Part shown: piece after piece, positions 24,101 through 45,222 of the stretch | Position numbering within the stretch: position 1 is the stretch's first letter | How the letters are laid out: the number at the start of each line of letters is the position of its first letter | Virus record (IMG/VR): IMGVR_UViG_3300042154_004306 | Strand: one strand, 5' to 3' | Origin: a virus | Lineage: Duplodnaviria; Heunggongvirae; Uroviricota; Caudoviricetes | Length of the DNA: 64,000 bases | Made by a program: the position numbers and the translations under genes | The notes under the pieces: generated by a model | The model's database searches: none | Seen by the model: only the letters and a program-made list of their open reading frames with translations | What the model was told of the DNA's origin: nothing

Positions 24101-27100
24101 AACAGGTAGTACACCAGTCCTAGTACAGCAATTTATAACGCCACAATTAGGATTTTCTGTAATACCGGGTGGAACACAAAGATTCCATTTACATTTTAAA
24201 AAGAATAATACAAATGATAATACTGATACATTTGTTACAATCGAATTAGCTAATTCTAGTGGTACTGGATACGGGACAATTATATCAACAAACCAAGCAG
24301 CAATTGGATTTGTATCGCCGACAATTCCAGTAGAAGTTACAACTGATTTAACTTTACCTACAACTACAATTAACTCAACCGATCGAATGATCGTTAAGAT
24401 ATACGTAGTAGATCAAGGAACTAGCACCCGAGATGTTACCTGGTATACTGAAGGATCTACTAATTATTCGTTTGTGATAACCTCGGTTGGAGCTCAAAGC
24501 GGTACATCAGGTACATCAGGTTCTTCAGGAACATCAGGCTCAAGTGGAACTAGTGGTTCATCAGGTACCTCAGGTTCTTCAGGTTCTAGTGGAAGTTCAG
24601 GTTCATCTGGTTCATCAGGTACTTCGGGGTCAAGTGGTACTTCAGGTACTGACGGCTCAAGTGGTACAAGCGGTACTGATGGAAGTAGCGGAACTTCAGG
24701 AACATCAGGTTCAAGCGGAACAGATGGTTCGTCAGGAACTTCAGGCAGTAGTGGAACTTCAGGTTCAAGTGGTTCTTCGGGTACATCAGGTACAAATGGT
24801 ACAAGTGGTTCATCGGGAACAAATGGTAGTTCAGGTACTTCCGGAACTTCAGGTAGCTCAGGCACATCCGGATCTTCTGGAAGTTCAGGAACATCAGGTT
24901 CAAGTGGTTCATCAGGAACTAGCGGTTCTTCAGGTTCAAGCGGAACTAGCGGTAGCTCAGGTTCTTCAGGAAGTAATGGAACTTCAGGGTCTTCCGGTTC
25001 ATCAGGAACTAGCGGTACGGATGGTAGTTCAGGGACTAGTGGTAGTTCAGGGACTAGTGGTATTAATGGTTCGTCAGGAACTTCAGGAACTAATGGAACA
25101 TCAGGTTCAAGTGGAAGTTCAGGTTCTTCTGGTACATCAGGTAGTTCGGGTTCAAGTGGATCTTCAGGATCTTCTGGGTCTGCTGGTACATCCGGTAGTT
25201 CTGGAACAAGTGGTTCTTCAGGTACATCAGGTTCAAGTGGAAGTTCAGGTACATCAGGATCTGCTGGAACAAGCGGTTCATCAGGATCAAGTGGTTCTAG
25301 TGGTTCATCTGGTACTAGCGGAAGCTCAGGAACATCAGGATCAAGTGGTACTTCAGGATCTTCTGGCTCAAGTGGAACATCCGGTACATCGGGATCAAGT
25401 GGTTCTAGTGGTACATCGGGATCAAGTGGTTCTAGTGGTACATCGGGAACATCAGGATCTTCTGGATCTTCAGGAACTAGTGGATCATCAGGATCAGCAG
25501 GTTCATCTGGATCCTCAGGAACTTCAGGTTCAAGCGGAACTAGCGGAGATTCCTGCATCAGTTACACTATAACCAATACCGGATCAATATTTGGAAATAT
25601 TGATCCCCCTATTAGTGTAGATTATACTGACTGTTCGTATAATCAAGGTACCTCAATAACGTTAAATCCTGGTGAATCTGCAACGGTTTGTGCAATAGGT
25701 GGTTCAATCGGTGTATCAGGCAGTACTAATTACTCGATTATTAATAATGGCTTATGTCACGGTTCTTCTGGAAGTAGCGGTACTTCAGGGTCAAGCGGAA
25801 CATCAGGTTCATCAGGAAGTTCAGGAACATCTGGCTCAAGCGGAACTAGCGGAAGCTCAGGTTCAAGCGGAACATCAGGGTCTAGTGGAACAAGTGGTAG
25901 TAGTGGTACGTCAGGAACATCAGGTTCAAGCGGTACTTCCGGAACATCAGGTACTTCCGGAACTTCAGGTAGCTCAGGCACATCCGGATCTTCTGGAAGT
26001 TCAGGAACATCTGGCTCAAGCGGTACATCAGGCACATCAGGTAGCTCAGGATCTGCTGGATCTTCTGGTACATCAGGTAGTTCAGGTTCAAGTGGAACAA
26101 GCGGAAGTTCTGGCTCTTCAGGAACTAGTGGTTCTAGTGGAAGTTCAGGTTCTAGTGGAACAAGTGGTTCATCAGGTACGGATGGTAGTTCAGGTACAAG
26201 TGGAACTAATGGTAGTTCAGGTACAAGTGGTACTGATGGTTCTTCAGGAACTTCGGGGTCAAGTGGAACTTCAGGTACGGACGGAAGTTCAGGTACTAGT
26301 GGTAGTTCAGGTTCATCAGGGTCTTCCGGTTCATCAGGATCATCCGGAACATCAGGATCTGCTGGAACAAGTGGTTCATCCGGATCGAGTGGATCTTCAG
26401 GATCTGCTGGTACTTCAGGTAGTTCAGGAAGTAGTGGATCATCAGGCTCTTCTGGAACAAGTGGTTCATCTGGATCTGCTGGAACAAGCGGTAGTTCAGG
26501 ATCAAGTGGATCATCAGGATCTGCTGGTACATCCGGTTCAAGTGGCTCATCCGGCTCTGCTGGAACAAGTGGTTCATCCGGCTCTTCGGGTAGTAGTGGC
26601 TCTGCTGGTACTTCTGGATCATCAGGATCTGCTGGTACTTCGGGTAGTTCAGGTTCATCAGGAACTAGTGGTACATCTGGTAGTTCAGGCTCTGCTGGTA
26701 CATCAGGATCAAGTGGTAGCTCAGGTTCAGCTGGTACATCTGGTACAAGTGGATCAAGCGGTACTTCAGGTTCATCAGGAACTAGCGGCTCAAGTGGAAC
26801 TAGCGGTTCATCTGGCTCAAGTGGAACTAGCGGTTCATCAGGAACATCTGGTTCAAGCGGTACTTCGGGTTCTAACGGTTCGTCAGGAACAAGCGGATCT
26901 TCAGGAACTTCTGGTTCTTCTGGCTCAAGTGGTTCTTCTGGAACATCAGGCTCTAGTGGTTCTTCTGGAACATCGGGTAGCTCAGGCACTTCAGGTTCTT
27001 CAGGCACTTCAGGCTCAAGTGGTTCAAATGGAACTTCAGGCTCAAGTGGTTCAAGCGGTACATCAGGTTCTTCTGGTAGCTCAGGAACTTCAGGTTCAAG

Positions 27101-30011
27101 CGGAAGTTCTGGCTCTTCAGGAACTAGTGGTTCTAGTGGAAGTTCAGGTTCTAGTGGAACTTCTGGATCTTCTGGAACATCGGGTAGCTCAGGCTCTTCA
27201 GGTACTTCAGGTTCTTCTGGAACTTCAGGTAGCTCGGGAACATCTGGTTCTTCTGGTTCGTCAGGAACAAGCGGATCTTCTGGTTCAAACGGAACATCTG
27301 GCTCTTCTGGATCAAGCGGAACAAGTGGCACCTCCGGTAGCTCAGGTACATCAGGTTCTTCTGGAACTTCAGGTTCTTCAGGAACATCTGGATCTTCAGG
27401 GTCAAGCGGATCTTCTGGATCAAGTGGCACCTCTGGTAGCTCAGGTACGGCCGGCTCTTCGGGAACTTCTGGTTCGTCAGGAACTAGCGGAAGCTCGGGT
27501 TCGTCAGGTTCTTCTGGAACATCAGGTTCTTCAGGAACTTCAGGTTCAAGTGGTTCTTCAGGAACTAGTGGATCTTCTGGCTCAAGTGGAACTTCCGGTT
27601 CTTCCGGAACATCAGGTTCAAGCGGGTCTTCGGGTTCTTCTGGAACATCAGGTTCAAGCGGATCAAATGGTACATCAGGTTCTTCTGGAACTAGTGGAAG
27701 CTCAGGTTCTTCTGGAACATCAGGTTCAAGCGGATCAAATGGTACATCAGGTTCATCAGGAACTAGCGGCTCAAGTGGAACTAGCGGTTCATCTGGCTCA
27801 AGTGGAACTAACGGTTCATCGGGAACTAGCGGTAGTTCAGGAACTTCAGGTTCAAGTGGTTCATCAGGTTCAAGTGGTTCTTCAGGGACTAGTGGTTCAT
27901 CTGGCTCTTCAGGAACCAGCGGTTCATCGGGCTCAAGCGGAACTTCAGGTTCTAATGGTTCATCGGGAACAAGTGGTTCAAGTGGTTCTTCAGGAACTAG
28001 TGGAACAAGTGGTTCATCTGGTTCATCGGGAACTAGCGGTTCATCAGGTTCAAGTGGTACTTCGGGTAGTTCAGGAAGTAGTGGAACATCAGGTTCTTCT
28101 GGTACTTCGGGTTCAAGCGGAACATCAGGAACATCGGGTTCATCAGGTTCAAGTGGAACGAGTGGTTCATCGGGAACTAGTGGAAGTTCTGGTACTTCAG
28201 GTAGCTCAGGTTCAAGTGGTTCTTCCGGAACAAGCGGTTCATCAGGCACTTCAGGATCAAGCGGTAGCTCAGGATCAAGTGGATCATCAGGATCTGCTGG
28301 TACAAGTGGATCATCAGGATCAAGTGGTAGCTCAGGTACTTCTGGTTCTTCAGGAAGTTCAGGAACGTCAGGTTCAACTGGTACCTCAGGATCAAGCGGG
28401 ATAAGTGGAGTCAACGGAACAGACGGATCGTCTGGAACAAGCGGCAGCTCAGGTACTTCCGGAACTTCAGGTAGCTCAGGCACATCCGGATCTTCTGGAA
28501 GTTCAGGAACTTCAGGTAGCTCAGGCACATCCGGATCTTCTGGAAGTTCAGGAACTTCAGGTTCAAGTGGTTCATCAGGAACATCAGGTTCAAGTGGTTC
28601 TTCAGGAACATCAGGTTCAAGTGGTTCATCAGGAACTTCAGGTTCAAGTGGAACAAATGGTTCTTCAGGAACATCTGGTTCAAGCGGTACTTCAGGTAGC
28701 TCAGGTTCAAGCGGAACTAGTGGTTCTTCAGGAACATCAGGTTCAAGTGGCACTTCGGGTAGTTCGGGTACACGCGGTTCTTCAGGTTCAAGTGGAACTA
28801 GCGGAAGCTCAGGTTCAAGTGGAACTAGCGGAAGCTCAGGTTCAAGTGGAACTAGTGGAAGCTCAGGTTCAAGTGGAACTTCAGGTTCTTCAGGAACATC
28901 AGGTTCAAGCGGTTCATCAGGTTCAAGCGGTTCTTCTGGTTCATCGGGAACTAGTGGTAGTTCAGGTTCTTCAGGAACTTCAGGTTCTTCAGGAACATCA
29001 GGTTCAAGCGGAACAAGCGGAAGTTCTGGCTCTTCAGGAACTAGTGGTTCTAGTGGAAGTTCAGGAACATCGGGAAGTAGTGGTTCTAGCGGTACATCAG
29101 GTTCAAGCGGAACATCCGGTGCAACTGGTCCAACTGGGTCTTCCGGTACTTCAGGAACATCCGGTGCAACTGGTCCAACTGGGTCTTCCGGTACTTCAGG
29201 AACATCCGGTGCAACTGGTCCAACTGGGTCTTCCGGTACTTCAGGAACATCCGGTGCAACTGGTCCAACTGGGTCTTCCGGTACTTCAGGAACATCCGGT
29301 GCAACTGGTCCAACTGGTCCAACTGGCCCTTCTGGAGGCTCAAGTGGAACTAGTGGTAGTTCAGGTTCTTCAGGAACTTCTGGAGTTAGTGGAGCATCTG
29401 GAACTAGTGGTACTTCAGGAATTAGTGGTACTTCAGGAACATCCGGTGCAACTGGTCCAACTGGTCCAACTGGCCCAACTGGCCCTTCTGGAGGCTCAAG
29501 TGGTTCTTCAGGAACATCAGGTTTAAACGGTCTCGATTATGGCCGATACTCACTGGAAAGTAATCAAACGATGACCGCCACCGGCGTATACACAGTTCAA
29601 TTCGACCATTCTTGGTTGGATCCAAATACCAGATGGAATGGCACAACCAAGACATGGAACCTAATTAGTGGAGTTTATGAGATCGGCACAAACATCACGG
29701 TCTCAGGAACTTCAGGTACAAGCGGTTCTCCTGGGCCGTACGCGGTTCGAATTGTCAATGATACAACTGGTGCAGTCTTTGCTATTGCAAACACCGTTGC
29801 CAACCTGGCTAGCAATTACGAACACACTACTCACCTCAGTACGATAATTAAGACCACTAGTGATTTGTCAATCCGGGTTGATGTTGACCTGTCACAGGCT
29901 ACGCTTGCATGTACAATTCATGGCGCGTATACCGGCTATAATCCTTACGATGCTGAAACTGGCGCTAACGTGTTGACTGACTTTTGGTATCATAGGGTTG
30001 CCGATGCATAA
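21153..30011 (+). CDS. Giant 2952-aa collagen-like (Gly-X-X; X mostly Ser/Thr) fibre protein with interspersed globular and C1q-like domains
   Basis: Gly at every third residue over most of the length, GATGPT triplets near the C-terminus, and internal and C-terminal C1q-like beta-sandwich segments. Confidence 0.8.
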   Translation: MAINLSDNILAKTTGPADAKYGPYSGANLAAAKTAATTYLLASYRYEGLTVGLLVATDPVVEYWFLGGITDANLVLKQTSGSGGTNGTSGSSGTSGSSGTGGTSGTSGTSGSSGSSGTSGSSGSSGTSGSSGTSGSSGTSGSSGTSGSSGTSGVIGIPGNDGSNSLRWYWDNSTILVPTYFITTDGAGSVENNLKFITDIELDHYNSNSIDSINWLSEISSLISSGLDVILQITEPNNTSVSGIYYISSDLSTPSSAKYALNIIVADGSLTDQKEYTISWVASFSGSAGASGTSGSSGSSGSSGISGSSGTSGSAGTSGSSGSSGSSGSSGSSGSSGTSGSTGSSGSSGTSGSAGTSGTSGSTGTSGTSGSSGTSGSAGSSGTSGTTGTSGSSGTSGSSGTSGTAGTSGTSPTGLVASNYVVRGVKGGSTQTIPNATDTIVTFVDDFDPNGWLSSNRIQPNISGYYIVNAQVWWDPGAVTNNQSNIQFSKNGSTQIAIHQTQILTGSGYAQEIDAIIFFNGTTDYVEVTAFTGNPTSQVINSANGGTYIEASLIVGGGTSGSSGTSGTSGSSGSSGTSGSAGTSGSSGTSGSSGTSGINGSSGTSGINGSSGTSGSDGSSGTSGTSGSSGTSGINGSSGTSGINGSSGTSGSDGSSGTSGTSGSSGTSGINGSSGTSGINGSSGTSGINGSSGTSGVNGSSGTSGSSCLTYFVLNTSISSFETYSYIDCEFNSQGPIVLPPAGSATFCALGDSVTGGPNIDIALLGICSGSSGSSGTSGSSGTSGSSGSSGTSGSTGSSGSSGSSGSSGTSGSSGTSGSSGTSGSSGTSGSSGTSGSSGTSGSSGTSGSSGTSGSTGSSGSSGSSGSSGTSGSSGTSGSTGSSGSSGSSGSSGTSGSSGSSGTSGSSGSSGTSGSSGSSGSAGSSGTSGTSGTSGSSGTSGANGISSGQIYYFNESVSSGIGTYKELSANPTGAAEQSILKTTTGSTPVLVQQFITPQLGFSVIPGGTQRFHLHFKKNNTNDNTDTFVTIELANSSGTGYGTIISTNQAAIGFVSPTIPVEVTTDLTLPTTTINSTDRMIVKIYVVDQGTSTRDVTWYTEGSTNYSFVITSVGAQSGTSGTSGSSGTSGSSGTSGSSGTSGSSGSSGSSGSSGSSGTSGSSGTSGTDGSSGTSGTDGSSGTSGTSGSSGTDGSSGTSGSSGTSGSSGSSGTSGTNGTSGSSGTNGSSGTSGTSGSSGTSGSSGSSGTSGSSGSSGTSGSSGSSGTSGSSGSSGSNGTSGSSGSSGTSGTDGSSGTSGSSGTSGINGSSGTSGTNGTSGSSGSSGSSGTSGSSGSSGSSGSSGSAGTSGSSGTSGSSGTSGSSGSSGTSGSAGTSGSSGSSGSSGSSGTSGSSGTSGSSGTSGSSGSSGTSGTSGSSGSSGTSGSSGSSGTSGTSGSSGSSGTSGSSGSAGSSGSSGTSGSSGTSGDSCISYTITNTGSIFGNIDPPISVDYTDCSYNQGTSITLNPGESATVCAIGGSIGVSGSTNYSIINNGLCHGSSGSSGTSGSSGTSGSSGSSGTSGSSGTSGSSGSSGTSGSSGTSGSSGTSGTSGSSGTSGTSGTSGTSGSSGTSGSSGSSGTSGSSGTSGTSGSSGSAGSSGTSGSSGSSGTSGSSGSSGTSGSSGSSGSSGTSGSSGTDGSSGTSGTNGSSGTSGTDGSSGTSGSSGTSGTDGSSGTSGSSGSSGSSGSSGSSGTSGSAGTSGSSGSSGSSGSAGTSGSSGSSGSSGSSGTSGSSGSAGTSGSSGSSGSSGSAGTSGSSGSSGSAGTSGSSGSSGSSGSAGTSGSSGSAGTSGSSGSSGTSGTSGSSGSAGTSGSSGSSGSAGTSGTSGSSGTSGSSGTSGSSGTSGSSGSSGTSGSSGTSGSSGTSGSNGSSGTSGSSGTSGSSGSSGSSGTSGSSGSSGTSGSSGTSGSSGTSGSSGSNGTSGSSGSSGTSGSSGSSGTSGSSGSSGSSGTSGSSGSSGSSGTSGSSGTSGSSGSSGTSGSSGTSGSSGTSGSSGSSGTSGSSGSNGTSGSSGSSGTSGTSGSSGTSGSSGTSGSSGTSGSSGSSGSSGSSGTSGSSGTAGSSGTSGSSGTSGSSGSSGSSGTSGSSGTSGSSGSSGTSGSSGSSGTSGSSGTSGSSGSSGSSGTSGSSGSNGTSGSSGTSGSSGSSGTSGSSGSNGTSGSSGTSGSSGTSGSSGSSGTNGSSGTSGSSGTSGSSGSSGSSGSSGTSGSSGSSGTSGSSGSSGTSGSNGSSGTSGSSGSSGTSGTSGSSGSSGTSGSSGSSGTSGSSGSSGTSGSSGTSGSSGTSGTSGSSGSSGTSGSSGTSGSSGTSGSSGSSGSSGTSGSSGTSGSSGSSGSSGSSGSAGTSGSSGSSGSSGTSGSSGSSGTSGSTGTSGSSGISGVNGTDGSSGTSGSSGTSGTSGSSGTSGSSGSSGTSGSSGTSGSSGSSGTSGSSGSSGTSGSSGSSGTSGSSGSSGTSGSSGTNGSSGTSGSSGTSGSSGSSGTSGSSGTSGSSGTSGSSGTRGSSGSSGTSGSSGSSGTSGSSGSSGTSGSSGSSGTSGSSGTSGSSGSSGSSGSSGSSGTSGSSGSSGTSGSSGTSGSSGTSGSSGSSGTSGSSGSSGTSGSSGSSGTSGSSGTSGATGPTGSSGTSGTSGATGPTGSSGTSGTSGATGPTGSSGTSGTSGATGPTGSSGTSGTSGATGPTGPTGPSGGSSGTSGSSGSSGTSGVSGASGTSGTSGISGTSGTSGATGPTGPTGPTGPSGGSSGSSGTSGLNGLDYGRYSLESNQTMTATGVYTVQFDHSWLDPNTRWNGTTKTWNLISGVYEIGTNITVSGTSGTSGSPGPYAVRIVNDTTGAVFAIANTVANLASNYEHTTHLSTIIKTTSDLSIRVDVDLSQATLACTIHGAYTGYNPYDAETGANVLTDFWYHRVADA
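29118..29297 (+). repeat. Perfect 45-nt tandem repeat x4 (GATGPTGSSGTSGTS)
   Basis: Copies start at 29118, 29163, 29208 and 29253, with a partial fifth at 29298. Confidence 0.9.
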
Positions 30012-30064: not shown

Positions 30065-30655
30065 TTACCGAAACGGTGATCCTCCAACCCAAAGTACTAG
30101 GCTTCTTCGAATTCCGCGAGTCACTGGCGTAACTCGGTGTAGCATGTAACTTGGAAAAATTAGAACCGCTCCATGAGTGTTAGGCAGTCTTTCAGGATTC
30201 ATGCCCCTAAGTATCTCAAAGTCTCCACCGTCATATTCGCTAGGATCGCTTAACTGTACTGATATGCTTACTTTTCTGTGAGATGCTGTGCCTGGACCAA
30301 GGTCAACATGATAGCCGTAGTGGCCACCACCTTCATGATACTCGGTGTACTGTATGCTTTCTGGACTTGAAATTAGGTCAAAATTCCATAAATTTGAATT
30401 AGCCGTCCTTGCGAAATCTAGCATTTTACTGTAGAGCCAATGAGCCTCCGGCTTTGAATTATCAATCCATTTAATGCGGCTCTTTCTAATCTCGGCGGTT
30501 GGAGAGTCTGTTCCAAATGTGACAGCCTCTTCGTATTTGAACTCGGTTGCAAGTTCATGAGCTCGATTAATTTCATCAATTGAAAAACCTCTTTCAAACC
30601 AATACCAGTTTAATAGGTCAATCTCTTTTTGGGGAAATACTAGTTTCCAGGTCAT
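30065..30655 (-). CDS. 2OG-Fe(II) dioxygenase (prolyl-4-hydroxylase/PKHD-type)
   Basis: HVD...H facial triad (HYGYHVD; MLHRVTPV), YDGGDF and R-x-S-L-V-x-W. Confidence 0.85.
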   Translation of the reverse strand: MTWKLVFPQKEIDLLNWYWFERGFSIDEINRAHELATEFKYEEAVTFGTDSPTAEIRKSRIKWIDNSKPEAHWLYSKMLDFARTANSNLWNFDLISSPESIQYTEYHEGGGHYGYHVDLGPGTASHRKVSISVQLSDPSEYDGGDFEILRGMNPERLPNTHGAVLIFPSYMLHRVTPVTRGIRRSLVLWVGGSPFR

Positions 30656-30753: not shown

Positions 30754-33558
30754 ATGTCATTAATAAAAGCGCACACTTCGATAATTGGAGATACTGGCTA
30801 TAACTGCCATTCACGAAATTTCTTCAAAGCTTTAAATAAACACATCCCAGTCCAGGTTAGAAATTGGACGGTCGGTGAATCTTGGAAAGGATACCAAACC
30901 GATAGCCCACATGACGGTGAGTACTATATGGATGATGAACTGCGAACAATGCTCGATTCACAAAGCCTAATAGAGCCTAGTGGCCAATCCAAGGGCTATC
31001 CTCTCTATCGGAACTACCGGCAAGAGACTTCCGGTCAACCGGTTAACATCATTCTAAATGATAATCGACATGAGTACTTTTTTCAAAATTATTCAGGCCC
31101 AAAGATTGCATATAACGTTTGGGAAACAACTCAGCAGCCTAAAGAATTTTTTGAGAGATTAAAGACGATGGATCAGGTTTGGGTTCCAAGTAAATGGCAA
31201 CGAGATTGCACAGTTGAGCAGGGAATTCCGGCCGCTCTGGTCAAAATCGTGCCAGAGGGAGTTGATGCTTCCATGTTTTTTCCAAGAACTAGAGAAGTGA
31301 TTGACCCAAGCGGTCGAACCTTTAAATTCGTATTGATAGGCCGTTGGGAATATCGTAAAGCGACTAGAGAGATCATTCAAGCATTCACTCAAACCTTTAG
31401 CGAAGACGAACCAGTAGAATTAATTATCAATGTGGATAACGGATTCGCAACAGACGGCCTATCCTCAACTGAGGAACGCCTTGAAAAATTCGGCATCAAG
31501 CATGCAGGCATCAAAGTGATTCATCACATAACCAAACAGGAATACGTCGACCTACTTAATTCAGCTGACGTGTTTGTGTCTTGTGCCAGAAGCGAAGGTT
31601 GGAACCTACCTCTAATTGAGGCAATGGCCAGCGGAGTTCCATCGATATACAGTAATTGGGGAGCTCAATTGGAGTTTGCAGAAGGCAAGGGAATCCCAGT
31701 CAAAATAGTTGGAGAAGTTCCAGCAGCGGCACAGAATGAAGAATCTTGGGATTCAAGCTCTCCTGGTAATTTTGCAGAGCCGGACTTTGCGGATTTACGC
31801 CTAAAACTTAGAGACTCCTATGAAAATTTCACAGCACATAAGGCAAAAGCTCTACTAGACTCCGATGAAATTCGTAGAGTTTTTAGCTGGGAAAATGCTG
31901 CAATAATCGCATTAGATCACATTAGAGAGGTGCTAGCCTCCAGTACAATTGAATACTCATCTGACTTTGCATGGGTGACCTGTGGGAACGAGAAGTACAT
32001 GCCGTTAATTCAGAAGTTAGCTACTTCGCTAGACCTATTTTCCAAGCGAAAATTAATCGTATATGGAATAGATTGTGAAGTCCCCAATATGGGACCAAAC
32101 GTAATCGGTCGAACCTTGTCAATTCAATATCACTCAGAACATGATAAGTGGTACTGGAAGCAATCTGCATGCCTTGAATCACTAAACGAAGAATTTGAGA
32201 ATTTTATTTGGGTCGACGGCGATATTGTTGCGAATTACACGATCGATAATATTGCCGAGTACTTTAATTTAGTTGATAATTATCCAGTACCAGACGTCCA
32301 CATACAAGAAGATTTCGTGGGTTGGCATACAAAACCGGACGGAACTCTAGGTGAGCAATTATTCAATCAAAATATTTGCGAAAAAGAGAAAATTCCTAGA
32401 CTTGCAACAAAGTCTCACATTTGCCTCTACCTCTATAATAAGAAGTGTGATTGGTGGTTTGCTGAGATTTTAGAAACCTATAAGAACACAAAACCTGAAG
32501 AGTATGGCTTCTACTTCCAATGGAATGATGAGGGTATTGATAACTACTTACGCTGCAAGTATAACTTTCAAAAATTTCTACCAATCTCTAACTTCGATGT
32601 TTCTGAATGGGATGGAGAGATTCAAGGATCTAATGGCAAAGCAATGGAACATTTCCTGTCTTTTTGGAGAGAAAACGGGCCAAAGAACTTCGGTAAAATA
32701 TACGGATGGCAAAGAATTCCAGCAGATAAATCAAAAATTCTCTATTTTCATGGAAACAAAAATCTAGACTTTGCACAAACCATGATAGACTATGTCAAAT
32801 TCCAAAGAGACGGCTCATTTTTTGACTCGGAATACTTTTTTGTTGCTGACAATCAAATAAAGAATTTGGGAGAGATTCGTAATGCTCACGGATCAACCAT
32901 GGATATTGCCCATCAATACGGCTGGGATTATGCAATCTATCATGAAATTTATAATTTAGGAGATTATGAACATCCTAGAGAGTCTGCTGAAAAATTAGTT
33001 AAGGTGAGACCTGGAGATGTAGTGGTCGATCTTGGAGGAAATATCGGAATATTTACCAGATACGCGTATCACATGGGAGCAAGTAAGATCATTACCTTTG
33101 AACCGGACCGTAGATACTTTAAGATACTAAAACAAAATGCCCCAGCCAATACAATTCTGTTTAATGCAGCAATCGGCAATGAGGTTGGCAAATTAAGATT
33201 AACTGAAAGCACTCATTTGGGAGGATCTAACCTATGGCATCATGCCGATCCGACTACGACACAATACGATGTTAATACCTACACCCTAAATTACCTACTA
33301 GATAACGGATTGATTGATAAAATCGATTTCTTAAAGGTTGATATTGAGGGCTCTGAGATTATTGCATTGGATGGAATAAGCGATGCTCATCTTTCGAATA
33401 TCAGAAATATCGCAGTTGAGTATCATCATGAACACCTAAAATTCGATGATGAACTTAGAAACAATTTCATTACTCGATTGAATCGACTTGGTTTTAATTC
33501 ATACATGCTAATGTGCGGCTATGATAATGCACTACAATTAATTTACTTCTGGAAATAA
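30754..33558 (+). CDS. Trifunctional protein: GT4 glycosyltransferase + GT-A glycosyltransferase + FkbM-type methyltransferase
   Basis: EGWNLPLIEAMASG (GT4 E-x7-E); WVDGD and YFHG (GT-A); VVVDLGGNIG and FLKVDIEGSE (FkbM). Confidence 0.85.
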   Translation: MSLIKAHTSIIGDTGYNCHSRNFFKALNKHIPVQVRNWTVGESWKGYQTDSPHDGEYYMDDELRTMLDSQSLIEPSGQSKGYPLYRNYRQETSGQPVNIILNDNRHEYFFQNYSGPKIAYNVWETTQQPKEFFERLKTMDQVWVPSKWQRDCTVEQGIPAALVKIVPEGVDASMFFPRTREVIDPSGRTFKFVLIGRWEYRKATREIIQAFTQTFSEDEPVELIINVDNGFATDGLSSTEERLEKFGIKHAGIKVIHHITKQEYVDLLNSADVFVSCARSEGWNLPLIEAMASGVPSIYSNWGAQLEFAEGKGIPVKIVGEVPAAAQNEESWDSSSPGNFAEPDFADLRLKLRDSYENFTAHKAKALLDSDEIRRVFSWENAAIIALDHIREVLASSTIEYSSDFAWVTCGNEKYMPLIQKLATSLDLFSKRKLIVYGIDCEVPNMGPNVIGRTLSIQYHSEHDKWYWKQSACLESLNEEFENFIWVDGDIVANYTIDNIAEYFNLVDNYPVPDVHIQEDFVGWHTKPDGTLGEQLFNQNICEKEKIPRLATKSHICLYLYNKKCDWWFAEILETYKNTKPEEYGFYFQWNDEGIDNYLRCKYNFQKFLPISNFDVSEWDGEIQGSNGKAMEHFLSFWRENGPKNFGKIYGWQRIPADKSKILYFHGNKNLDFAQTMIDYVKFQRDGSFFDSEYFFVADNQIKNLGEIRNAHGSTMDIAHQYGWDYAIYHEIYNLGDYEHPRESAEKLVKVRPGDVVVDLGGNIGIFTRYAYHMGASKIITFEPDRRYFKILKQNAPANTILFNAAIGNEVGKLRLTESTHLGGSNLWHHADPTTTQYDVNTYTLNYLLDNGLIDKIDFLKVDIEGSEIIALDGISDAHLSNIRNIAVEYHHEHLKFDDELRNNFITRLNRLGFNSYMLMCGYDNALQLIYFWK

Positions 33559-33569
33559 ACCCATTTAAA

Positions 33570-34238
33570 ATGAGATCATTAGATAAAATAGCAAAAGCAA
33601 AGGGCACAGATAAATCTTCAGAGCTTCATAACTACTGTGAAAAGTACGAAAAATATTTGCCATTCAATAGATTAGAACCTATTACTCTATTGGAAATTGG
33701 AGTGCTTAACGCAGAATCTCTTGCGACTTGGAGAGAATACTATCCCAATGCAACAATCATCGGCATTGATATTAATCCGGATTGCAAGCAGTATGAAGAT
33801 CAACCGAATAATGTATTCGTTGAAATAGGTTCACAGTATGATGAGGCTTTCCTAAAGTCAATAGTTGATAAATGGGGACCTTTTGATATTGTACTAGATG
33901 ACGGTTCTCACATGAATCACCATGTAATCTTTTCATTTGAACAGCTATTTAGTTCAATCAAACCTTCTGGAGTATACGTTGTCGAGGATGCATGCACTTC
34001 ATATTGGCCAGACTACGGAGGCGGCACTAAAAAACCTGGCACAATGATAGAATACTTCAAAGACCGAGTAGATGAAGTTAATTTCGGCGGAGAATGGCAA
34101 GAGTCCATCACACACAGTCACGCACGTCGTGAAGACTTGTTAATTGAACAATTCAAACGAAAGGGCTATAATTTCATAGGAACTCAAGTCGAGTCCTTAA
34201 ATTTCCTAAACAGCATAATCATAATAACAAAAAGATAA
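33570..34238 (+). CDS. Class I SAM-dependent O-methyltransferase (MycE/TylE sugar-O-methyltransferase-like)
   Basis: TDKS..HNY, LLEIGV, FDIVLDDGSH and GVYVVED motifs. Confidence 0.8.
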   Translation: MRSLDKIAKAKGTDKSSELHNYCEKYEKYLPFNRLEPITLLEIGVLNAESLATWREYYPNATIIGIDINPDCKQYEDQPNNVFVEIGSQYDEAFLKSIVDKWGPFDIVLDDGSHMNHHVIFSFEQLFSSIKPSGVYVVEDACTSYWPDYGGGTKKPGTMIEYFKDRVDEVNFGGEWQESITHSHARREDLLIEQFKRKGYNFIGTQVESLNFLNSIIIITKR

Positions 34239-34246
34239 CAATTATA

Positions 34247-37024
34247 ATGGCACACAAAGAACAGCAGGACTTTTGTAAAAAAATGAAAGCTAATTTTCCA
34301 AAATACTTTCAAAATAAAAAAGTATTAGATATTGGCTCCCTAGACGTTAATGGCAATAATCGATTCTTATTCGATGATTGCAACTATATTGGCCTTGACG
34401 TCGGAGATGGTAAAAACGTTGATGTAGTTTTTCCAGGCCATAAGTACGATGCTCCAGACGAGCAATTTGATGTAATTATCTCAACTGAAGTATTTGAACA
34501 TGATATGTATTATGAATCAACCATTCAAAATATTATCAGAATGCTAAAACCTGGAGGAATGTTTATTTTTACATGTGCTTCAGGTCAACGCCCTGAGCAT
34601 GGAACACTTCGCCGTGGAGAGCATGACGCTCCATTATTAATTCAGCAATCTCCAGAATGGGCAAATTACTATAAAAATTTAGAGAAGGAAGACTTTTTAG
34701 CAATTAATGAGTTTAAGAATGCATTCCCTGATGGAATATTCGAAGTAGGTTCACATGGCATGTATAACCACGAATGGGATGATCAGCTAATGCACAATAT
34801 TCATTCTGACATTTATTTCTTTGGAGTTAAAGGCGGCATTGCAAACGACCTTAAATTTTCACCAGACCACAGGCCGTCTCAAACTCAACCTGGAGAATAT
34901 TCAGACGATATTTTTGTTGTTGACACCTGGCCCAACACTCCAGAAAAGGAGGCTGATCTTATTGAGTGCATTAGGAAACTTAGAGAATTTAGCGGCATTC
35001 CGATCTTGTTAGTGTCTCACTATGCAATAAAACCTGAAATTCAAAAATTAGTAGATTACTATATTTTCGACAAAGATAATCCTCTTTTGCTAAACAAAGA
35101 TTTTGATTCAGTTAGCTCTTTTGCTAGCGGTAGATGGACTGCTACTAATGAATACCGAGTGGATAACTACATGGCCTACCATCATGATTATGCTATTTGG
35201 CAATCAATGACTCATGCCTTTAATTTTTGTAAGTATTTAGGTAAAAAGATGATACACTTTATGGAATACGATTGTCTGCTTGACACATTTCAGTATCGCC
35301 AAACCTTTTTAGAACAGGCTCGCAATCATGACGCCGTGATCTATGAATATCGTAAAGGTTCTGCAGCAGATCAACACCTATCTGCGTACATGGCAACCTA
35401 CATATTTTCAATAAAAACTGATATTGCCGTTGAGATGATGAAGCAGGTAAATTCAATTCAAGAATACTATTCGAATCGACCTGAAAGTTGGCAGCTTGAA
35501 AGACTTTTCTTAAGGTGCTTAACTGAACAAACTTCCAACATTCTAGTAAGTAAATACATTGCAAACTCAAACGAATTAAATACTCAAGCAGTTTGGAATA
35601 GAGATGGAATTCTCAGAAATGATGCAAAATTCCAGGTTTATCCATGTGCTGATGTAAATGGCAACTTTTACGTTCATCTTATTTCAGGATTTCACGAAGC
35701 GTCAGCTGATTCGGATTATCTACTTGAAATCAAATACGCAGGTCTCACTAAATTCGTAACTCTAACCATAGGTCAAATGACTCTAATTCACTTGGGAAAA
35801 TACAGTAAAGGTCAGACGATTAAAGTAAATTATTTAGGAGTTGAGGCATTCTCTGAATTTTTACAAGACGAGCTAGCCGAGTTCTTAAAAATGAATATTG
35901 TAACTTTGCCAAATGGTGCAGAACCTACGGTTGAAGTTTTTTATAATTTCGTGGACGGTGCATACGTTGAGATAAAATCAGATTCACCAAGTCCTTATAA
36001 AGTGTCATTTATCGATGATGATTCTGGTGTTACCCATTTTTCGACAACCCTTACTTCCGGTCATTGGGCTAAAACCGGGATCCAGTACTTCAAGAATTGG
36101 AGAATCGAGATTACGGACTCATTTAATAAGGTAATCGAGTCCGCTAAATATGACGCTGCCGGCCAACGAGTTTACATCGCCCTTGAGTCAAAAGCGCTAG
36201 GTGATACTTTTGCATGGCTGCCGTATGTTGAGGAGTTTAGAAAAAAGCATGATTGCGCAGTAATCTGCTCAACATTTCATAATCAATTATTTAAAGCGAC
36301 TTATCCAAATATCGGGTTCATTGAGCCAGGTAGTCCAATCGGTGGCGTGTACGCGCTTTACAGATTGGGTTGGTTTAACCATGGAGACCGCTTCGATGCG
36401 GACCGAAATCCTAGAGATTTTAAATTAGGTCCTTTGCAACGAACTGCTTCTGATATATTAGGTTTAGAGTATCGAGAGGTTAGACCGGTAATTTACCGCC
36501 CTGCTCGAAAATTGACAAAGAAGGTAGGCCTTGGAATTCACAGCACAGCTCAAGCAAAATATTGGAATAACTCAACTGGCTGGCAAGAGGTTACTGATTG
36601 GCTAATCGAAAATGGATATGAGCCCGTAATCTTGTCTAGGGAAGAAGACGGCTACATGGGAAATCCAAATCCAGTTGGAGCTGTTCAGCTTGTGCCAGGC
36701 CCGTTAAAGAGCGTCATTCACGAACTCTCTGAGTGTCAAGCATTCATAGGTATCAGTAGTGGATTGACCTGGTTAGCATGGGCTACCGATACGCCAACTG
36801 TTCAAATTTCCGGATTCACGGAACCTTTCAATGAGCCTAATGAGGGTATTATTAAGATATCTGCCCCAGCTGGCGCATGCTCAGGTTGTGCTAATCGATC
36901 AAAATTTGATCCAGGAGATTGGAACTGGTGCCCGGACCAAAAGGGCACGGACCGCCAATTTGAGTGCTCAAAATTAATCAGTGCAGACCGGGTAATCGCT
37001 AAACTAAGGGAGATTCTCGTATAG
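34247..37024 (+). CDS. Methyltransferase + unknown middle domain + Aah/TibC-like protein O-glycosyltransferase
   Basis: N-terminal VLDIGSLDVNG methyltransferase. C-terminal YNFVDGAYVEI...YFKNWRIEI barrel, ALGDTFAWLPYVEEFRKKHDC, FIGISSGLTWLAWA and CSGC...WCP...RQFEC four-Cys motif. Confidence 0.8.
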   Translation: MAHKEQQDFCKKMKANFPKYFQNKKVLDIGSLDVNGNNRFLFDDCNYIGLDVGDGKNVDVVFPGHKYDAPDEQFDVIISTEVFEHDMYYESTIQNIIRMLKPGGMFIFTCASGQRPEHGTLRRGEHDAPLLIQQSPEWANYYKNLEKEDFLAINEFKNAFPDGIFEVGSHGMYNHEWDDQLMHNIHSDIYFFGVKGGIANDLKFSPDHRPSQTQPGEYSDDIFVVDTWPNTPEKEADLIECIRKLREFSGIPILLVSHYAIKPEIQKLVDYYIFDKDNPLLLNKDFDSVSSFASGRWTATNEYRVDNYMAYHHDYAIWQSMTHAFNFCKYLGKKMIHFMEYDCLLDTFQYRQTFLEQARNHDAVIYEYRKGSAADQHLSAYMATYIFSIKTDIAVEMMKQVNSIQEYYSNRPESWQLERLFLRCLTEQTSNILVSKYIANSNELNTQAVWNRDGILRNDAKFQVYPCADVNGNFYVHLISGFHEASADSDYLLEIKYAGLTKFVTLTIGQMTLIHLGKYSKGQTIKVNYLGVEAFSEFLQDELAEFLKMNIVTLPNGAEPTVEVFYNFVDGAYVEIKSDSPSPYKVSFIDDDSGVTHFSTTLTSGHWAKTGIQYFKNWRIEITDSFNKVIESAKYDAAGQRVYIALESKALGDTFAWLPYVEEFRKKHDCAVICSTFHNQLFKATYPNIGFIEPGSPIGGVYALYRLGWFNHGDRFDADRNPRDFKLGPLQRTASDILGLEYREVRPVIYRPARKLTKKVGLGIHSTAQAKYWNNSTGWQEVTDWLIENGYEPVILSREEDGYMGNPNPVGAVQLVPGPLKSVIHELSECQAFIGISSGLTWLAWATDTPTVQISGFTEPFNEPNEGIIKISAPAGACSGCANRSKFDPGDWNWCPDQKGTDRQFECSKLISADRVIAKLREILV

Positions 37025-37034
37025 ATAATTCTAT

Positions 37035-37649
37035 ATGATATTAAACGCCAGACAGAACAGTTTTTTCATAAACTTCCCACCGGATTTCTTTAATCAGACG
37101 GTGCAAGATAAGTACAGTAAGTACTACCGAAGTTTATTATTGCCGTATAAATCGCTACCTGATTTCATGGCATCAACCGTGCAGACAATAAATTTTCCAG
37201 GATTCACATCGAGCCTACAGACCCAAACCAGAACATTGGGCAAGCTACAAGAGGTGCAAAGCTCAAAACCAATAGCAGACCAATTCACACGAGAGCTGAA
37301 AATAACTTTCAAGTTAACTGATGCCTATTTAAACTATTTCATCTTTTTAGATAATGCACTAAACTATCTTGAACCGGCAAACGTCTCACCTGAAAACTCT
37401 CAAAACTCGTTAGGCCAAGCTCTATCGGTACCTGCGACAGCTAACGGTAATCATCCGTTCTTTCATCCGATCAGGTTGACTCTATTAAATAATGAGGGTT
37501 ACGCGGTCTCTTCGATTATTTTCAACAGACCCATGCTAAAATCACTTAGTGAAATGAACTTATCGTATTCTTCGGTAACTCCTCAATTCACGACGTTCAC
37601 CACGACTTTCCAATATTATAATTTTGATTTAGAGCTAGACTTTGATTAA
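37035..37649 (+). CDS. Tail completion protein, T4 gp3-like (tail-tube fold)
   Basis: VQTINFPG...LKITFKL...NY...LTLLNN...SLSEMNLSY...TFQY pattern. Confidence 0.6.
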   Translation: MILNARQNSFFINFPPDFFNQTVQDKYSKYYRSLLLPYKSLPDFMASTVQTINFPGFTSSLQTQTRTLGKLQEVQSSKPIADQFTRELKITFKLTDAYLNYFIFLDNALNYLEPANVSPENSQNSLGQALSVPATANGNHPFFHPIRLTLLNNEGYAVSSIIFNRPMLKSLSEMNLSYSSVTPQFTTFTTTFQYYNFDLELDFD

Positions 37650-38390: not shown

Positions 38391-39044
38391 TTATTTATTT
38401 GAGCTCACTCGACCCAATAGATAACCCTCTTTGGCATAATGATCAAGCTCGGCCAATTTAACCTTGACAGGTTTTTCACCAGGCCGGTGCATCCACCTTG
38501 TGCCGAATTGACTATTTTTTTCGCCACTCTGTTGTATTGAGTTCGCGGTTGCAATCTTTTTCCGGGTCTCATCCGAGTGAGATCTACCTGACCAGTCTGG
38601 AGTTTTTGCAATCTTACCGTTTAGATAGGCCCTTTTATTTGCAATCGACATTTTTAGAGAGTGAGCCTCCGCGTAGTCAAGGTCTTCCTTGATTAGGGCT
38701 GCTGTACGCTGTCCACCAGCTGACGCGCATTTAATCTGATGTGAGTCATTGATGAATCCTCCGTCTCCACCTAGTCTAAGATTCATGCACATTGGATCAG
38801 ACAGCATATCTTCATTGACTAATTCTCTTTCCCTAGTTTTTAATTCAAGTCGGTCTGATAAAAATTCAAGAATCTCAAGTGTGTGATTAGTTCTTCCGTG
38901 TTTATTAATGGAAAGCCATAATCTACGGCCACTCCCAATATAGCAATCCTTCAAATTAGATGTTGAATGCATGCCTATGTAATATTTACTAGTTACAGAG
39001 CAAGTCGTCTTATAAATGTAATGATATTTGTGTTGTTTTGACAT
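38391..39044 (-). mobile_element. Free-standing GIY-YIG homing endonuclease (Seg-like) with a NUMOD3 motif
   Basis: YIYKTT...YYIGMH...YIGSG, later conserved E and MNL; HSDETRKKIA NUMOD3-like motif. Confidence 0.85.
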
Positions 39045-45212: not shown

Positions 45213-45222
45213 CAATATATTA

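What the first reader, a model, noticed from the sequence alone, without database searches (positions are those of the whole stretch)
35920..37024. Aah/TibC-type autotransporter heptosyltransferase domain in a phage with no autotransporter nearby
The C-terminal ~370 aa show the N-terminal barrel (YNFVDGAYVEI...YFKNWRIEI), the LGDT-x-AW-x-PY catalytic region, FIGISSGLTWLAWA and a CxxC...WCP...FEC four-Cys iron-finger-like motif, in TibC order. The obvious Ser-rich acceptors nearby are the SGSSGT fibres. Many Bacteroidota are thought to lack LPS heptose, so the donor sugar may not be ADP-heptose (inference). Fusion to a methyltransferase suggests coupled transfer and methylation.
Basis: partly seen in the sequence, partly recalled or inferred. 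Interest (0 to 1): 0.8.

Follow-up and report, generated by a model that had tools for sequence, protein, structure and literature searches.

The report
Phage TibC-like enzyme for serine-collagen fibres
A giant uncultured lake phage encodes a true relative of the E. coli adhesin-glycosylating enzyme TibC, fused to two other sugar-building enzymes. It belongs to a large sister branch of that family that travels with proline-free Gly-Ser/Thr "collagen" fibres instead of autotransporters, so the phage probably sugar-coats its own fibres, with a donor sugar that is still unknown.

Summary
Observation confirmed. Residues 561-923 of the 925-aa ORF 34247..37024 match TIGR04414 (Aah/TibC) above its curated cut-off (259 vs 200 bits) and TibC itself (4RAP, E 9.5e-52). 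A pLDDT-94 model superposes on TibC at TM 0.87, against 0.45-0.50 for generic GT9. The catalytic Asp, Thr/Lys phosphate binders, Trp and all four iron-finger Cys are present. The adenine-contacting Arg-286 is Val.

The protein is a triple fusion: SAM-methyltransferase, a previously unnoticed GT-A-like domain, and the TibC-like domain. It sits in the virion module.

In a tree of 86 sequences, autotransporter-linked enzymes form one clade (support 1.0, all Arg, AIDA-repeat neighbours). The window's enzyme, all phage copies and some bacterial ones form the other (support 0.91), where 39/59 have a Ser/Thr-rich Gly-X-Y protein within 10 kb, against 1/26. Reciprocally, 19/78 fibre-selected phage loci hold the enzyme nearby, and 9/10 further large records hold it elsewhere.

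No GmhA or HldE was found in five related phage genomes (two complete), and no sugar-1-P nucleotidyltransferase in five complete ones. The donor is unresolved and the host is unknown (Bacteroidota unverified). No experiment exists.

This scan had already reached the same reading on other phage genomes and on this one. I rate it a new variant of a known kind.

The parts
34247..37024 (+). 925-aa three-module enzyme gene (SAM-MTase + GT-A-like + TibC-like)
   Evidence: ORF. About 30 clusters at 90% identity share the same 900-927 aa architecture at 57-87% identity. It lies 8 nt after the upstream MTase gene and 10 nt before a tail-tube-like gene.
34247..34696 (+). N-terminal class I SAM-dependent methyltransferase domain (res 1-~150)
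   Evidence: Pfam Methyltransf_23 E 8.2e-10 and Methyltransf_11 E 1.3e-7, both over cut-off.
34889..35620 (+). GT-A / nucleotide-diphospho-sugar transferase fold domain (res ~215-458), with invariant D226-x-W228, H312-H313-D314 and E340-Y341-D342
   Evidence: Model pLDDT 85.3. VIA Z 12-15 to both GT-A glycosyltransferases and nucleotidyltransferases; Foldseek. Invariant columns in A1; numbering checked.
35630..35860 (+). beta-sandwich linker domain (res ~462-538)
   Evidence: Seven strands at model residues 277-353. No fold assignment was attempted.
35927..37015 (+). TibC/Aah-type (BAHT-fold) glycosyltransferase domain: beta-barrel, GT-B core, thumb, iron finger (res 561-923)
   Evidence: TIGR04414 259 bits; 4RAP E 9.5e-52; TM 0.87 to TibC.
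36203..36205 (+). Asp-653, equivalent of the TibC catalytic base Asp-110
   Evidence: Alignment; invariant in 252/252 homologues; numbering; role from PMC4358343.
36713..36715 (+). Val-823 at the position of TibC Arg-286 (adenine N1 contact)
   Evidence: Arg in all 26 autotransporter-clade representatives and in 0 of 46 tips of the clade holding all phage copies.
36878..36967 (+). Four-Cys iron-finger-like motif (Cys-878, 881, 895, 907)
   Evidence: Aligned to TibC Cys-339/342/358/370. Each is conserved in 244-245 of 252 homologues.
21153..30011 (+). 2952-aa proline-poor Gly-(Ser/Thr)-(Ser/Thr) collagen-like fibre protein, the proposed main acceptor
   Evidence: 168 SGSSGT; 2133 aa in Gly-X-Y runs with 93% Ser/Thr in X/Y. 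Pfam Collagen 878.9 bits. 397 pattern matches in the window against 0 in shuffles.
19214..21118 (+). 634-aa second Gly-Ser/Thr collagen-like protein, proposed acceptor
   Evidence: 18 SGSSGT; Pfam Collagen E 8.8e-23.
30754..33558 (+). 934-aa GT4 + unannotated centre + FkbM methyltransferase, a likely glycan-extending partner
   Evidence: Pfam/NCBIfam.
33570..34238 (+). 222-aa weak methyltransferase-like protein
   Evidence: Pfam Methyltransf_24 E 0.0017, below cut-off.
37035..37649 (+). Tail-tube-like gene immediately downstream (context: virion module)
   Evidence: phrog_45 E 7.9e-6. The neighbours are T4 gp15-like and a baseplate wedge subunit.

Best explanation
The C-terminal 363 residues are a catalytically intact TibC-fold protein O-glycosyltransferase. 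It belongs to a deep sister clade of the autotransporter heptosyltransferases. It is fused to a GT-A-like transferase and a SAM-methyltransferase and is encoded in the virion module of an uncultured jumbo lake phage. Most likely, in the infected cell's cytoplasm, the TibC-like domain puts the first sugar on Ser/Thr hydroxyls of the phage's own proline-free Gly-(Ser/Thr)-(Ser/Thr) collagen-like fibre proteins (19214..21118 and 21153..30011). The fused GT-A-like domain and the neighbouring GT4 enzyme would then extend the glycan, and the methyltransferases would cap it. Shown: domain identity, intact catalytic and iron-finger residues, clade structure, and enzyme-fibre co-occurrence. Inferred: the acceptor, the order of steps, and the cytoplasmic site. 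Unresolved: the donor sugar. ADP-heptose is possible if the host supplies it (my estimate about 0.3), but the adenine-contact Arg is lost and no heptose genes travel with the enzyme, so another NDP-sugar is at least as likely.
For: Identity. Active-site columns are Asp 252/252, Lys 251/252, Trp 252/252, Thr/Ser 251/252 and Cys 244-245/252.

Clade split: the autotransporter clade has 26 representatives (support 1.0), all with Arg, and 1/26 has a Gly-X-Y neighbour. The other clade has 59 representatives (support 0.91) and 39/59 have one (32/42 for loci >=15 kb). Fisher p 4e-8 and 1.4e-6, not corrected for phylogeny.

Positive control: autotransporter-clade genes sit beside AIDA-repeat or autotransporter proteins.

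Genome level: 5/5 related phage genomes carry Gly-(S/T)-(S/T) arrays with 0 control matches, including two where the fibre lies 40-50 kb away.

Reciprocal: 19/78 loci chosen only by fibre similarity hold a TibC-like domain within the flank, against <=3/78 for any other enzyme domain of the cluster. 9/10 further large fibre-bearing records hold a TIGR04414 match over cut-off, 4/4 of the complete ones.

Cellular genomes of the same clade (a 5.2 Mb Arenicellales chromosome, a 2.7 Mb Methylococcales contig) have small (G-S/T-S/T)n proteins 0.1-1.5 kb away.

Context: tight + strand packing with tail genes.

Donor: Val at the Arg-286 position. No SIS_2/GmhA or HldE domain II in 5 relatives. No NTP_transferase in 5 complete genomes. 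Phage SDRs are GalE-, Gmd-, Fcl- or RmlB-like and none reaches the HldD cut-off.

[quoted passage not shown] Galactosylated Thr contributes to the thermal stability of Riftia collagen (PMC10141479).
Against: No biochemical or virion glycoproteomic data exist for any member of this clade. Co-occurrence is partly inflated by shared ancestry of the phages, and the Fisher tests are not phylogenetically corrected. 10 of 31 non-redundant phage loci have no fibre within 10 kb. The window also encodes a Thr-rich (21% Thr) protein at 15677..18157 that could be an alternative or additional acceptor. Many of the small Gly-X-Y ORFs in bacterial loci lie on the opposite strand, and their reading strand is not proven. 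TibC's known acceptor is a beta-helix loop, which is structurally unlike a Gly-X-Y chain. The background frequency of such fibres in all viral contigs could not be measured.
Confidence: 0.65

Rival explanations
1. It glycosylates a different phage protein, not the collagen-like fibres. Candidates are the Thr-rich 826-aa protein (15677..18157) or capsid/tail subunits, as in mycobacteriophage virion glycosylation.
For: A 21%-Thr protein is encoded 16 kb upstream in the same + strand block. 10/31 non-redundant phage loci lack a Gly-X-Y ORF within 10 kb. Capsid and tail-tube glycosylation by phage-encoded glycosyltransferases is the documented phage precedent (Freeman et al. 2023, PMC10527164, cited; details from my own knowledge).
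Against: The association with Gly-(S/T)-(S/T) proteins holds in both directions and at whole-genome level. It also holds in cellular genomes that have no virion proteins. I did not test co-occurrence with poly-Thr proteins.
Confidence: 0.12
2. It acts on a non-protein acceptor, like other GT9 enzymes: host LPS core or another envelope glycan, to alter the cell surface during infection.
For: Pfam Glyco_transf_9 (E 9.1e-7, 28.9 bits against a cut-off of 22) and a weak TIGR02193 heptosyltransferase I match. WaaC/WaaF are the next structural matches.
Against: The whole TibC-specific architecture (barrel, thumb, four-Cys finger) is kept: TM 0.87 to TibC against ~0.5 to WaaC. The gene sits in the structural module beside fibre and tail genes. 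The enzyme tracks a protein repeat class across genomes.
Confidence: 0.07
3. It is a canonical BAHT: an ADP-heptose-dependent heptosyltransferase acting on an AIDA/TibA-type autotransporter of the host.
For: It passes the TIGR04414 equivalog cut-off. JGI and NCBI name relatives 'autotransporter strand-loop-strand O-heptosyltransferase' and 'Aah/TibC'.
Against: There is no autotransporter or AIDA repeat in the window. It lies outside the autotransporter-linked clade. The Arg-286 adenine contact is lost. TibC scores 179 bits, against 290-520 bits for 150 environmental representatives.
Confidence: 0.03
4. The TibC-like module is mainly structural: a ring-shaped assembly factor or chaperone for the long fibre, with little or no transferase activity.
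For: TibC is a dodecameric ring that holds its substrate inside (PMC4358343). The thumb-tip hydrophobics (Tyr-Met) and Phe-368 are conserved in the family. One homologue has Asn at the catalytic Asp column (L087).
Against: The catalytic Asp and the donor-binding Lys, Thr and Trp are essentially invariant across 252 homologues, which argues for retained catalysis.
Confidence: 0.04

Closest known systems
TibC (ETEC) and Aah (DAEC), bacterial autotransporter heptosyltransferases (BAHT; TIGR04414; PDB 4RAP/4RB4; PMC4358343)
   Same: Same fold over the whole enzyme: N-terminal flattened beta-barrel, atypical GT-B core, thumb, four-Cys finger (TM 0.87, ~33% identity). Same catalytic Asp, Thr/Lys phosphate binders and Trp. 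Soluble, with no membrane segment. The gene is placed near a highly repetitive Ser/Thr-bearing protein.
   Different: A separate deep clade. The neighbour is a Gly-(S/T)-(S/T) collagen-like protein, not an AIDA-repeat beta-helix autotransporter. The adenine-contact Arg-286 is replaced by Val. The thumb is 3 residues shorter. It is fused to GT-A-like and methyltransferase modules. It is phage-encoded. The donor is unknown and oligomeric state and iron binding are untested.
BclA glycosylation in the Bacillus anthracis exosporium
   Same: A collagen-like Gly-X-Y protein forming surface filaments, whose collagen-like region carries O-linked oligosaccharides that include a methylated sugar (abstracts; Daubenspeck 2004, cited; Thr linkage from my own knowledge).
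   Different: BclA repeats are mostly Gly-Pro-Thr (own knowledge). Its glycosyltransferases are not BAHT-type as far as I know. It is a bacterial spore, not a virion.
Mycobacteriophage virion glycosylation (Freeman et al. 2023, PMC10527164)
   Same: Phage-encoded glycosyltransferases modify the phage's own structural proteins in the host cytoplasm.
   Different: There the acceptors are capsid and tail-tube C-termini and the enzymes belong to other GT families (own knowledge; paper not read here). No collagen-like acceptors and no TibC fold.
Riftia pachyptila cuticle collagen with galactosylated threonine
   Same: Gly-X-Thr collagen whose glycosylation contributes to thermal stability (PMC10141479). 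It is a model for why a proline-free Ser/Thr collagen might need sugars.
   Different: An animal extracellular matrix protein with unrelated enzymes. The analogy is functional only.

Membership tests
BAHT / TIGR04414 hepto_Aah_TibC | Profile score above the curated equivalog cut-off over the full length | tested here: met
   259 bits against 200; residues 561-923 on profile 9-374/374.
BAHT / TIGR04414 hepto_Aah_TibC | TibC protomer architecture: N-terminal beta-barrel + atypical GT-B core + inserted thumb and finger | tested here: met
   The model superposes on 4RAP at TM 0.87, rmsd 2.8 A over ~379 columns. Generic GT9 reaches TM 0.45-0.50. Eight strands precede the first helix.
BAHT / TIGR04414 hepto_Aah_TibC | Catalytic base Asp-110 and beta-phosphate/sugar contacts Thr-226, Lys-230, Trp-305 | tested here: met
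   Asp-653, Thr-767, Lys-771 and Trp-842, invariant or nearly so in 252 homologues.
BAHT / TIGR04414 hepto_Aah_TibC | Arg-286 contacting adenine N1 (the structural basis given for ADP-sugar specificity; R286A is inactive) | tested here: not met
   Val-823. Arg in 26/26 autotransporter-clade representatives and in 0/46 tips of the clade holding all phage copies. Role from PMC4358343.
BAHT / TIGR04414 hepto_Aah_TibC | Four-Cys 1Fe-0S iron finger | tested here: met
   Cys-878/881/895/907 align to Cys-339/342/358/370. This is sequence only; iron binding cannot be tested here.
BAHT / TIGR04414 hepto_Aah_TibC | Dodecameric ring through thumb and finger contacts | not testable with these tools
   Thumb-tip Phe-Val is Tyr-Met here, the thumb is 3 residues shorter, and Phe-368 is kept. 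Conservation alone does not show oligomeric state; it needs SEC-MALS or cryo-EM.
BAHT / TIGR04414 hepto_Aah_TibC | Genetic pairing with an AIDA/TibA-type autotransporter acceptor | tested here: not met
   No PF03797, PF16168 or PF03212 in any window ORF scanned. Autotransporter-clade controls do show them next door.
BAHT / TIGR04414 hepto_Aah_TibC | Placement inside the clade of characterised autotransporter heptosyltransferases | tested here: not met
   It falls in the sister clade (support 0.91), separate from the Aah-containing clade (support 1.0) (midpoint root, FastTree).
BAHT / TIGR04414 hepto_Aah_TibC | Uses ADP-heptose as donor | not testable with these tools
   Indirect only: Arg-286 is lost. 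No GmhA, HldE or HldD-grade gene in related phage genomes, and no NTP_transferase. The host is unknown.
GT-A glycosyltransferases (middle domain) | Nucleotide-diphospho-sugar transferase fold with a DxD-type acidic motif after the central strand | tested here: inconclusive
   The fold is met (Z 12-15), but GT-A enzymes are tied with IspD/GlmU-type nucleotidyltransferases. An invariant E340-Y341-D342 follows a strand, and no GxGxR loop follows the first strand. No Pfam or NCBIfam match.
Class I SAM-dependent methyltransferases (N-terminal domain) | Profile match over cut-off | tested here: met
   Methyltransf_23 39.1 bits against 27; Methyltransf_11 32.6 against 21.2. The substrate is unknown.

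The most novel reading that the evidence does not exclude
The fibre-linked sister clade of the BAHT family has switched both acceptor and donor. It uses a non-ADP nucleotide sugar to densely O-glycosylate proline-free Gly-Ser/Thr-Ser/Thr chains. These sugars, rather than hydroxyproline, are what let such chains form stable collagen triple helices. That would make a sugar-dependent 'glyco-collagen' that builds sub-micrometre fibres on many large aquatic phages and on some bacteria.
Probability: 0.3. Interest if true: 0.85.

Novelty: new variant of a known kind. Interest (0 to 1): 0.62.

Why it matters
The BAHT family is described as autotransporter-specific virulence machinery of Proteobacteria. 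Here the autotransporter enzymes turn out to be one branch of a much larger family: 1,417 clusters at 50% identity, 2,922 fused forms, at least 319 viral contigs and at least 594 bacterial genomes. The other major branch is tied to a different acceptor class.

If the inference holds, it gives:
- an enzyme family for protein O-glycosylation of collagen-like repeats;
- a concrete route to test whether sugars can replace hydroxyproline in stabilising a triple helix;
- evidence that many jumbo phages of lakes carry glycosylated fibres, which bears on adsorption, host range and particle stickiness;
- a natural Arg-to-Val change at the nucleotide-recognition site, to explore donor specificity in GT9-like enzymes.

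Microcystis phage Mel-JY01, which is cultured, carries the pairing and offers an experimental entry point.

Tried and rejected
- **Background frequency:** That background is therefore unmeasured.
- **Megablast** of 13 kb of the window against GenBank phages found nothing.
- **`complex prediction`** with two copies of the TibC-like domain gave no answer. It says nothing either way on oligomerisation.
- **Promoter/terminator scan** of 29.8-39.7 kb found no excess over shuffles, so it says nothing on operon structure.
- **Literature searches** for phage TibC-like enzymes found no relevant paper: 'phage + collagen-like + glycosyltransferase + heptosyltransferase' gave 0 papers, and 'TibC + bacteriophage' and 'BAHT + virus' gave only acronym noise. 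The library holds open-access papers only.
- **Middle domain as a sugar-phosphate nucleotidyltransferase** that makes the donor. The fold ties with IspD/GlmU. I set this aside, without excluding it, because there is no Gly-rich NTP loop after the first strand and an invariant E-Y-D sits at the DxD position.
- **DNA glycosylation.** I rejected this because the TibC-specific protein-binding modules are kept. An earlier scan note also reports a separate putative DNA-modification cassette at 56519..58778; here I saw only its FkbM and HhH-GPD matches.
- **Loss of Arg-286 as the marker of fibre-linked enzymes.** I rejected this because one fibre-linked gammaproteobacterial subclade keeps Arg (7 of 8 with Gly-X-Y neighbours). 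Acceptor class follows the deep split, and Arg loss came later.
Full report
**The observation**

Its C-terminal part matches NCBIfam TIGR04414, the Aah/TibC 'autotransporter strand-loop-strand O-heptosyltransferase' equivalog. The score is 259 bits against a curated cut-off of 200, and residues 561-923 cover profile positions 9-374 of 374. The only solved relative by sequence is TibC (4RAP/4RB4, E 9.5e-52, chain residues 20-380 of 406).

An AlphaFold model built on 26 diverse homologues has pLDDT 94.1. Its best structural match is TibC: E 1e-35, TM 0.87, rmsd 2.8 A over about 379 columns. The LPS heptosyltransferases WaaC and WaaF and another GT9 structure reach only TM 0.45-0.50.

**Residue-level test**

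The TibC paper (PMC4358343) defines these residues:
- Asp-110 as the catalytic base;
- Thr-226 and Lys-230 on the beta-phosphate;
- Trp-305 on heptose O4;
- Arg-286 on adenine N1, given as the basis for ADP specificity (R286A is inactive);
- Cys-339/342/358/370 holding the iron;
- Pro-300 (Ser in Aah) as the stereoselectivity determinant;
- Phe-265, Val-266 and Phe-368 in the thumb contact.

In the phage protein these positions are Asp-653, Thr-767, Lys-771, Trp-842, Val-823, Cys-878/881/895/907, Ser-837, Tyr-803, Met-804 and Phe-905. In 252 environmental homologues the Asp, Lys and Trp are invariant or nearly so, and each Cys is kept in 244-245. The Arg-286 column is Val 118, Arg 38, Thr 27, Leu 26, Ala 21 and Ile 18, while three autotransporter-linked references all have Arg. 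The enzyme therefore looks catalytically competent, with one defining donor contact changed.

**The rest of the protein**

Residues 1 to about 150 are a class I SAM-methyltransferase. The roughly 350 residues between this and the TibC-like domain have no Pfam or NCBIfam match, but they are strongly conserved in about 30 same-architecture clusters, with invariant D226-x-W228, H312-H313-D314 and E340-Y341-D342.

A pLDDT-85 model shows a nucleotide-diphospho-sugar transferase fold followed by a seven-strand beta-sandwich. Structure search ties GT-A glycosyltransferases (mannosylglycerate synthase, ArnC, TarP, POMGnT1) with nucleotidyltransferases (IspD, GlmU) at Z 12-15. The E-Y-D at the DxD position and the lack of a Gly-rich NTP loop make me lean towards GT-A, but this is not settled.

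**Context**

The gene sits in a + strand block:
- two Gly-X-Y proteins (19214..21118 and 21153..30011);
- a minus-strand 2OG-Fe(II) oxygenase;
- a GT4-unknown-FkbM protein;
- a small methyltransferase-like protein;
- this gene;
- then, 10 nt later, a tail-tube-like gene, followed by a T4 gp15-like gene, a homing endonuclease, a gp6-like baseplate wedge subunit and the large terminase.

The 2952-aa protein has 2133 residues in Gly-X-Y runs with 93% Ser/Thr and 1% Pro in X/Y. It scores 878.9 bits on Pfam Collagen. No autotransporter, AIDA repeat or nucleotide-sugar enzyme was found in any ORF scanned.

TerL is nearest (32-38%) to 630-640 kb metagenomic phages, Sphingomonas phage PAU and the Lak phages.

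**Family size**

The domain occurs in 2,922 fused proteins of 508-1619 aa. N-terminal partners include SAM-MTase, GT4 (the commonest), FkbM, GT8-like and GT25 domains. One carries the NCBI name 'Glycosyltransferase Aah/TibC [uncultured Caudovirales phage]'. There are 1,417 clusters at 50% identity. The best 150 score 290-520 bits, against 179 for TibC. At least 319 IMG/VR contigs (up to 271 kb) and at least 594 bacterial species genomes encode relatives. Plasmid copies are all proteobacterial, at 32-38% identity.

**Which acceptor?**

I tested the fibre hypothesis five ways.

1. Among 82 loci (81 fetched loci plus the window), 51 have a Ser/Thr-rich Gly-X-Y ORF within 10 kb. It lies upstream, downstream, directly adjacent or on the other strand. 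After collapsing to 90% identity this is 21 of 31 phage representatives.
2. All five related phage genomes tested carry such arrays, with 0 control matches. In two of them the fibre is 40-50 kb from the enzyme gene.
3. Reciprocally, I chose 78 viral loci only by similarity to the window's fibre repeat. Of these, 19 hold a TibC-like domain in the flank, against at most 3 for any other enzyme domain of the cluster. Of ten further large fibre-bearing records, nine hold a TIGR04414 match over cut-off elsewhere, including 4 of 4 complete genomes. The one miss is a 49%-complete fragment.
4. A tree of 86 representatives splits into two groups:

| Clade | Support | Representatives | Arg at position 286 | Gly-X-Y neighbour |
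|---|---|---|---|---|
| Autotransporter-type | 1.0 | 26 | 26/26 | 1/26 |
| Sister clade | 0.91 | 59 | 8/59 | 39/59 (32/42 for loci >=15 kb) |

   Fisher p is 4e-8 overall and 1.4e-6 for the long loci, not phylogenetically corrected. As a positive control, autotransporter-clade genes sit next to AIDA-repeat or autotransporter proteins.
5. Cellular genomes in the sister clade, including a 5.2-Mb Arenicellales chromosome and a 2.7-Mb Methylococcales contig, have small (G-S/T-S/T)n proteins 0.1-1.5 kb from the enzyme gene. The link is therefore not just shared phage ancestry. The strand of some of these short ORFs is uncertain.

One fibre-linked subclade keeps Arg. Acceptor class follows the deep split, and loss of Arg is a later event within the clade that contains all phage copies (0 Arg in 46 tips).

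**Which donor?**

This remains open. The evidence against a dedicated heptose supply is:
- no SIS_2/GmhA and no HldE adenylyltransferase domain in five related phage genomes, two of them complete;
- no sugar-1-phosphate nucleotidyltransferase in five complete genomes;
- PfkB kinases in only two of those five.

All five complete genomes encode SDR-type NDP-sugar enzymes. In G007 one abuts the TibC-like gene. On classification they are GalE-like (one a bona fide GalE at 404 bits), Gmd-like, Fcl-like and RmlB-like, plus an RfbH. None reaches the HldD cut-off. Together with Val at the adenine contact, this makes a non-ADP donor plausible. However, most Gram-negative hosts make ADP-heptose, so I put ADP-heptose at about 0.3.

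**Proposed mechanism**

TibC acts in the cytoplasm on its substrate before export. By analogy, the phage enzyme would act on newly made fibre chains in the infected cell. The TibC-like domain would add the first sugar to Ser/Thr in the X and Y positions. The fused GT-A-like module and the neighbouring GT4 enzyme would extend the glycan. The three methyltransferase domains would add methyl caps. All of these steps are inferred.

Two precedents make this credible. [quoted passage not shown] Galactosylated threonine contributes to the thermal stability of Riftia collagen (PMC10141479). For a collagen with about 1% proline, sugars may be needed for triple-helix stability. That is the most novel reading I cannot exclude.

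**Comparison and novelty**

It works like TibC in fold and catalytic apparatus. As a member of the characterised BAHT family it passes on profile score, architecture, catalytic residues and Cys finger. It fails on the Arg-286 contact, on autotransporter pairing and on clade placement. Donor, iron binding and oligomeric state are untested.

I file it as a new variant of a known kind: a fibre-linked sister clade of the BAHTs. Database annotations already carry the Aah/TibC name for phage proteins. I found no paper describing them (open-access library only).

**Earlier scan notes**

Earlier notes of this scan reached the same enzyme-fibre reading on other phage genomes and on this genome. I formed my reading before seeing them and re-derived the association independently. 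They add that the genome is a roughly 270-kb lake phage.

What this report adds:
- the residue-level membership test, with the clade-wide loss of Arg-286;
- the two-clade tree with an AIDA positive control;
- the reciprocal fibre-first test;
- the GT-A-like middle module;
- the survey of nucleotide-sugar genes.

**Limits**

- There is no experiment.
- The statistics are not phylogenetically corrected.
- The window's own genome was not available.

Noticed in passing
window 30754..33558 (+): 934-aa protein with an N-terminal GT4 domain and a C-terminal FkbM methyltransferase. About 340 unannotated residues lie between them (roughly 400-740) and may be a further transferase domain.
   Followed up: no
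window 30065..30655 (-): A 2OG-Fe(II) oxygenase (phrog_61, E 7.8e-32) sits alone on the minus strand between the giant collagen-like gene and the glycosyltransferase genes. A hydroxylase next to a collagen is suggestive, although the fibre has almost no Pro or Lys in its repeats.
   Followed up: no
window 38391..39044 (-): A homing endonuclease gene (phrog_314, E 1.1e-34) is inserted in the tail/baseplate module, between the gp15-like gene and the gp6-like gene.
   Followed up: no
window 14269..15621 (+) and 44358..45849 (+): An Amidoligase_2-domain protein lies upstream of the fibre block. PhoH and a sigma-70 region-2 protein lie just after the terminase.
   Followed up: no
L243:5045-5914 (-) and L243:5902-8145 (-), from a 256-kb complete phage (G007): A GalE-like SDR gene overlaps the end of a 747-aa TibC-like fusion gene by 13 nt. 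This is the tightest link seen between the enzyme and a nucleotide-sugar-modifying gene. It scores GalE 147 bits and HldD 107 bits, both below cut-off.
   Followed up: partly
L247:1-8401, from a 183-kb complete phage (G004): A deoxyhexose gene set (Gmd-like at 397 bits, Fcl-like, RfbH over cut-off, dTDP-glucose dehydratase-like) in a phage that also carries the TibC-like enzyme and a long Gly-Ser/Thr fibre. None of the five complete phages tested, this one included, has a sugar-1-P nucleotidyltransferase.
   Followed up: partly
L111, L113, L114, L110, L115, L159 (gammaproteobacterial MAGs and a 5.2-Mb Arenicellales chromosome): In these bacteria the TibC-like gene keeps Arg-286 and is flanked on both sides by small (130-230 aa) proteins with (GSS/GTS)n runs, in the same layout in several genomes. 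This may be a cellular version of the system with short acceptors.
   Followed up: partly
L087:10001-11074 (Bradyrhizobium MAG contig): This homologue has Asn at the catalytic Asp-110 column while keeping the four Cys. It may be an inactive or differently acting copy.
   Followed up: no
proteins P0121, P0136, P0140, P0243: Several family representatives match the domain in 2-4 separate stretches, which suggests tandem or interrupted TibC-like domains within one protein.
   Followed up: no
L001:11243-13162 (Microcystis phage Mel-JY01): A 640-aa 'cytidylyltransferase like protein' is annotated 3 kb downstream of the Mel-JY01 TibC-like fusion. It gave no match to HldE domain II at E <= 0.01, and its substrate is unknown.
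   Followed up: partly
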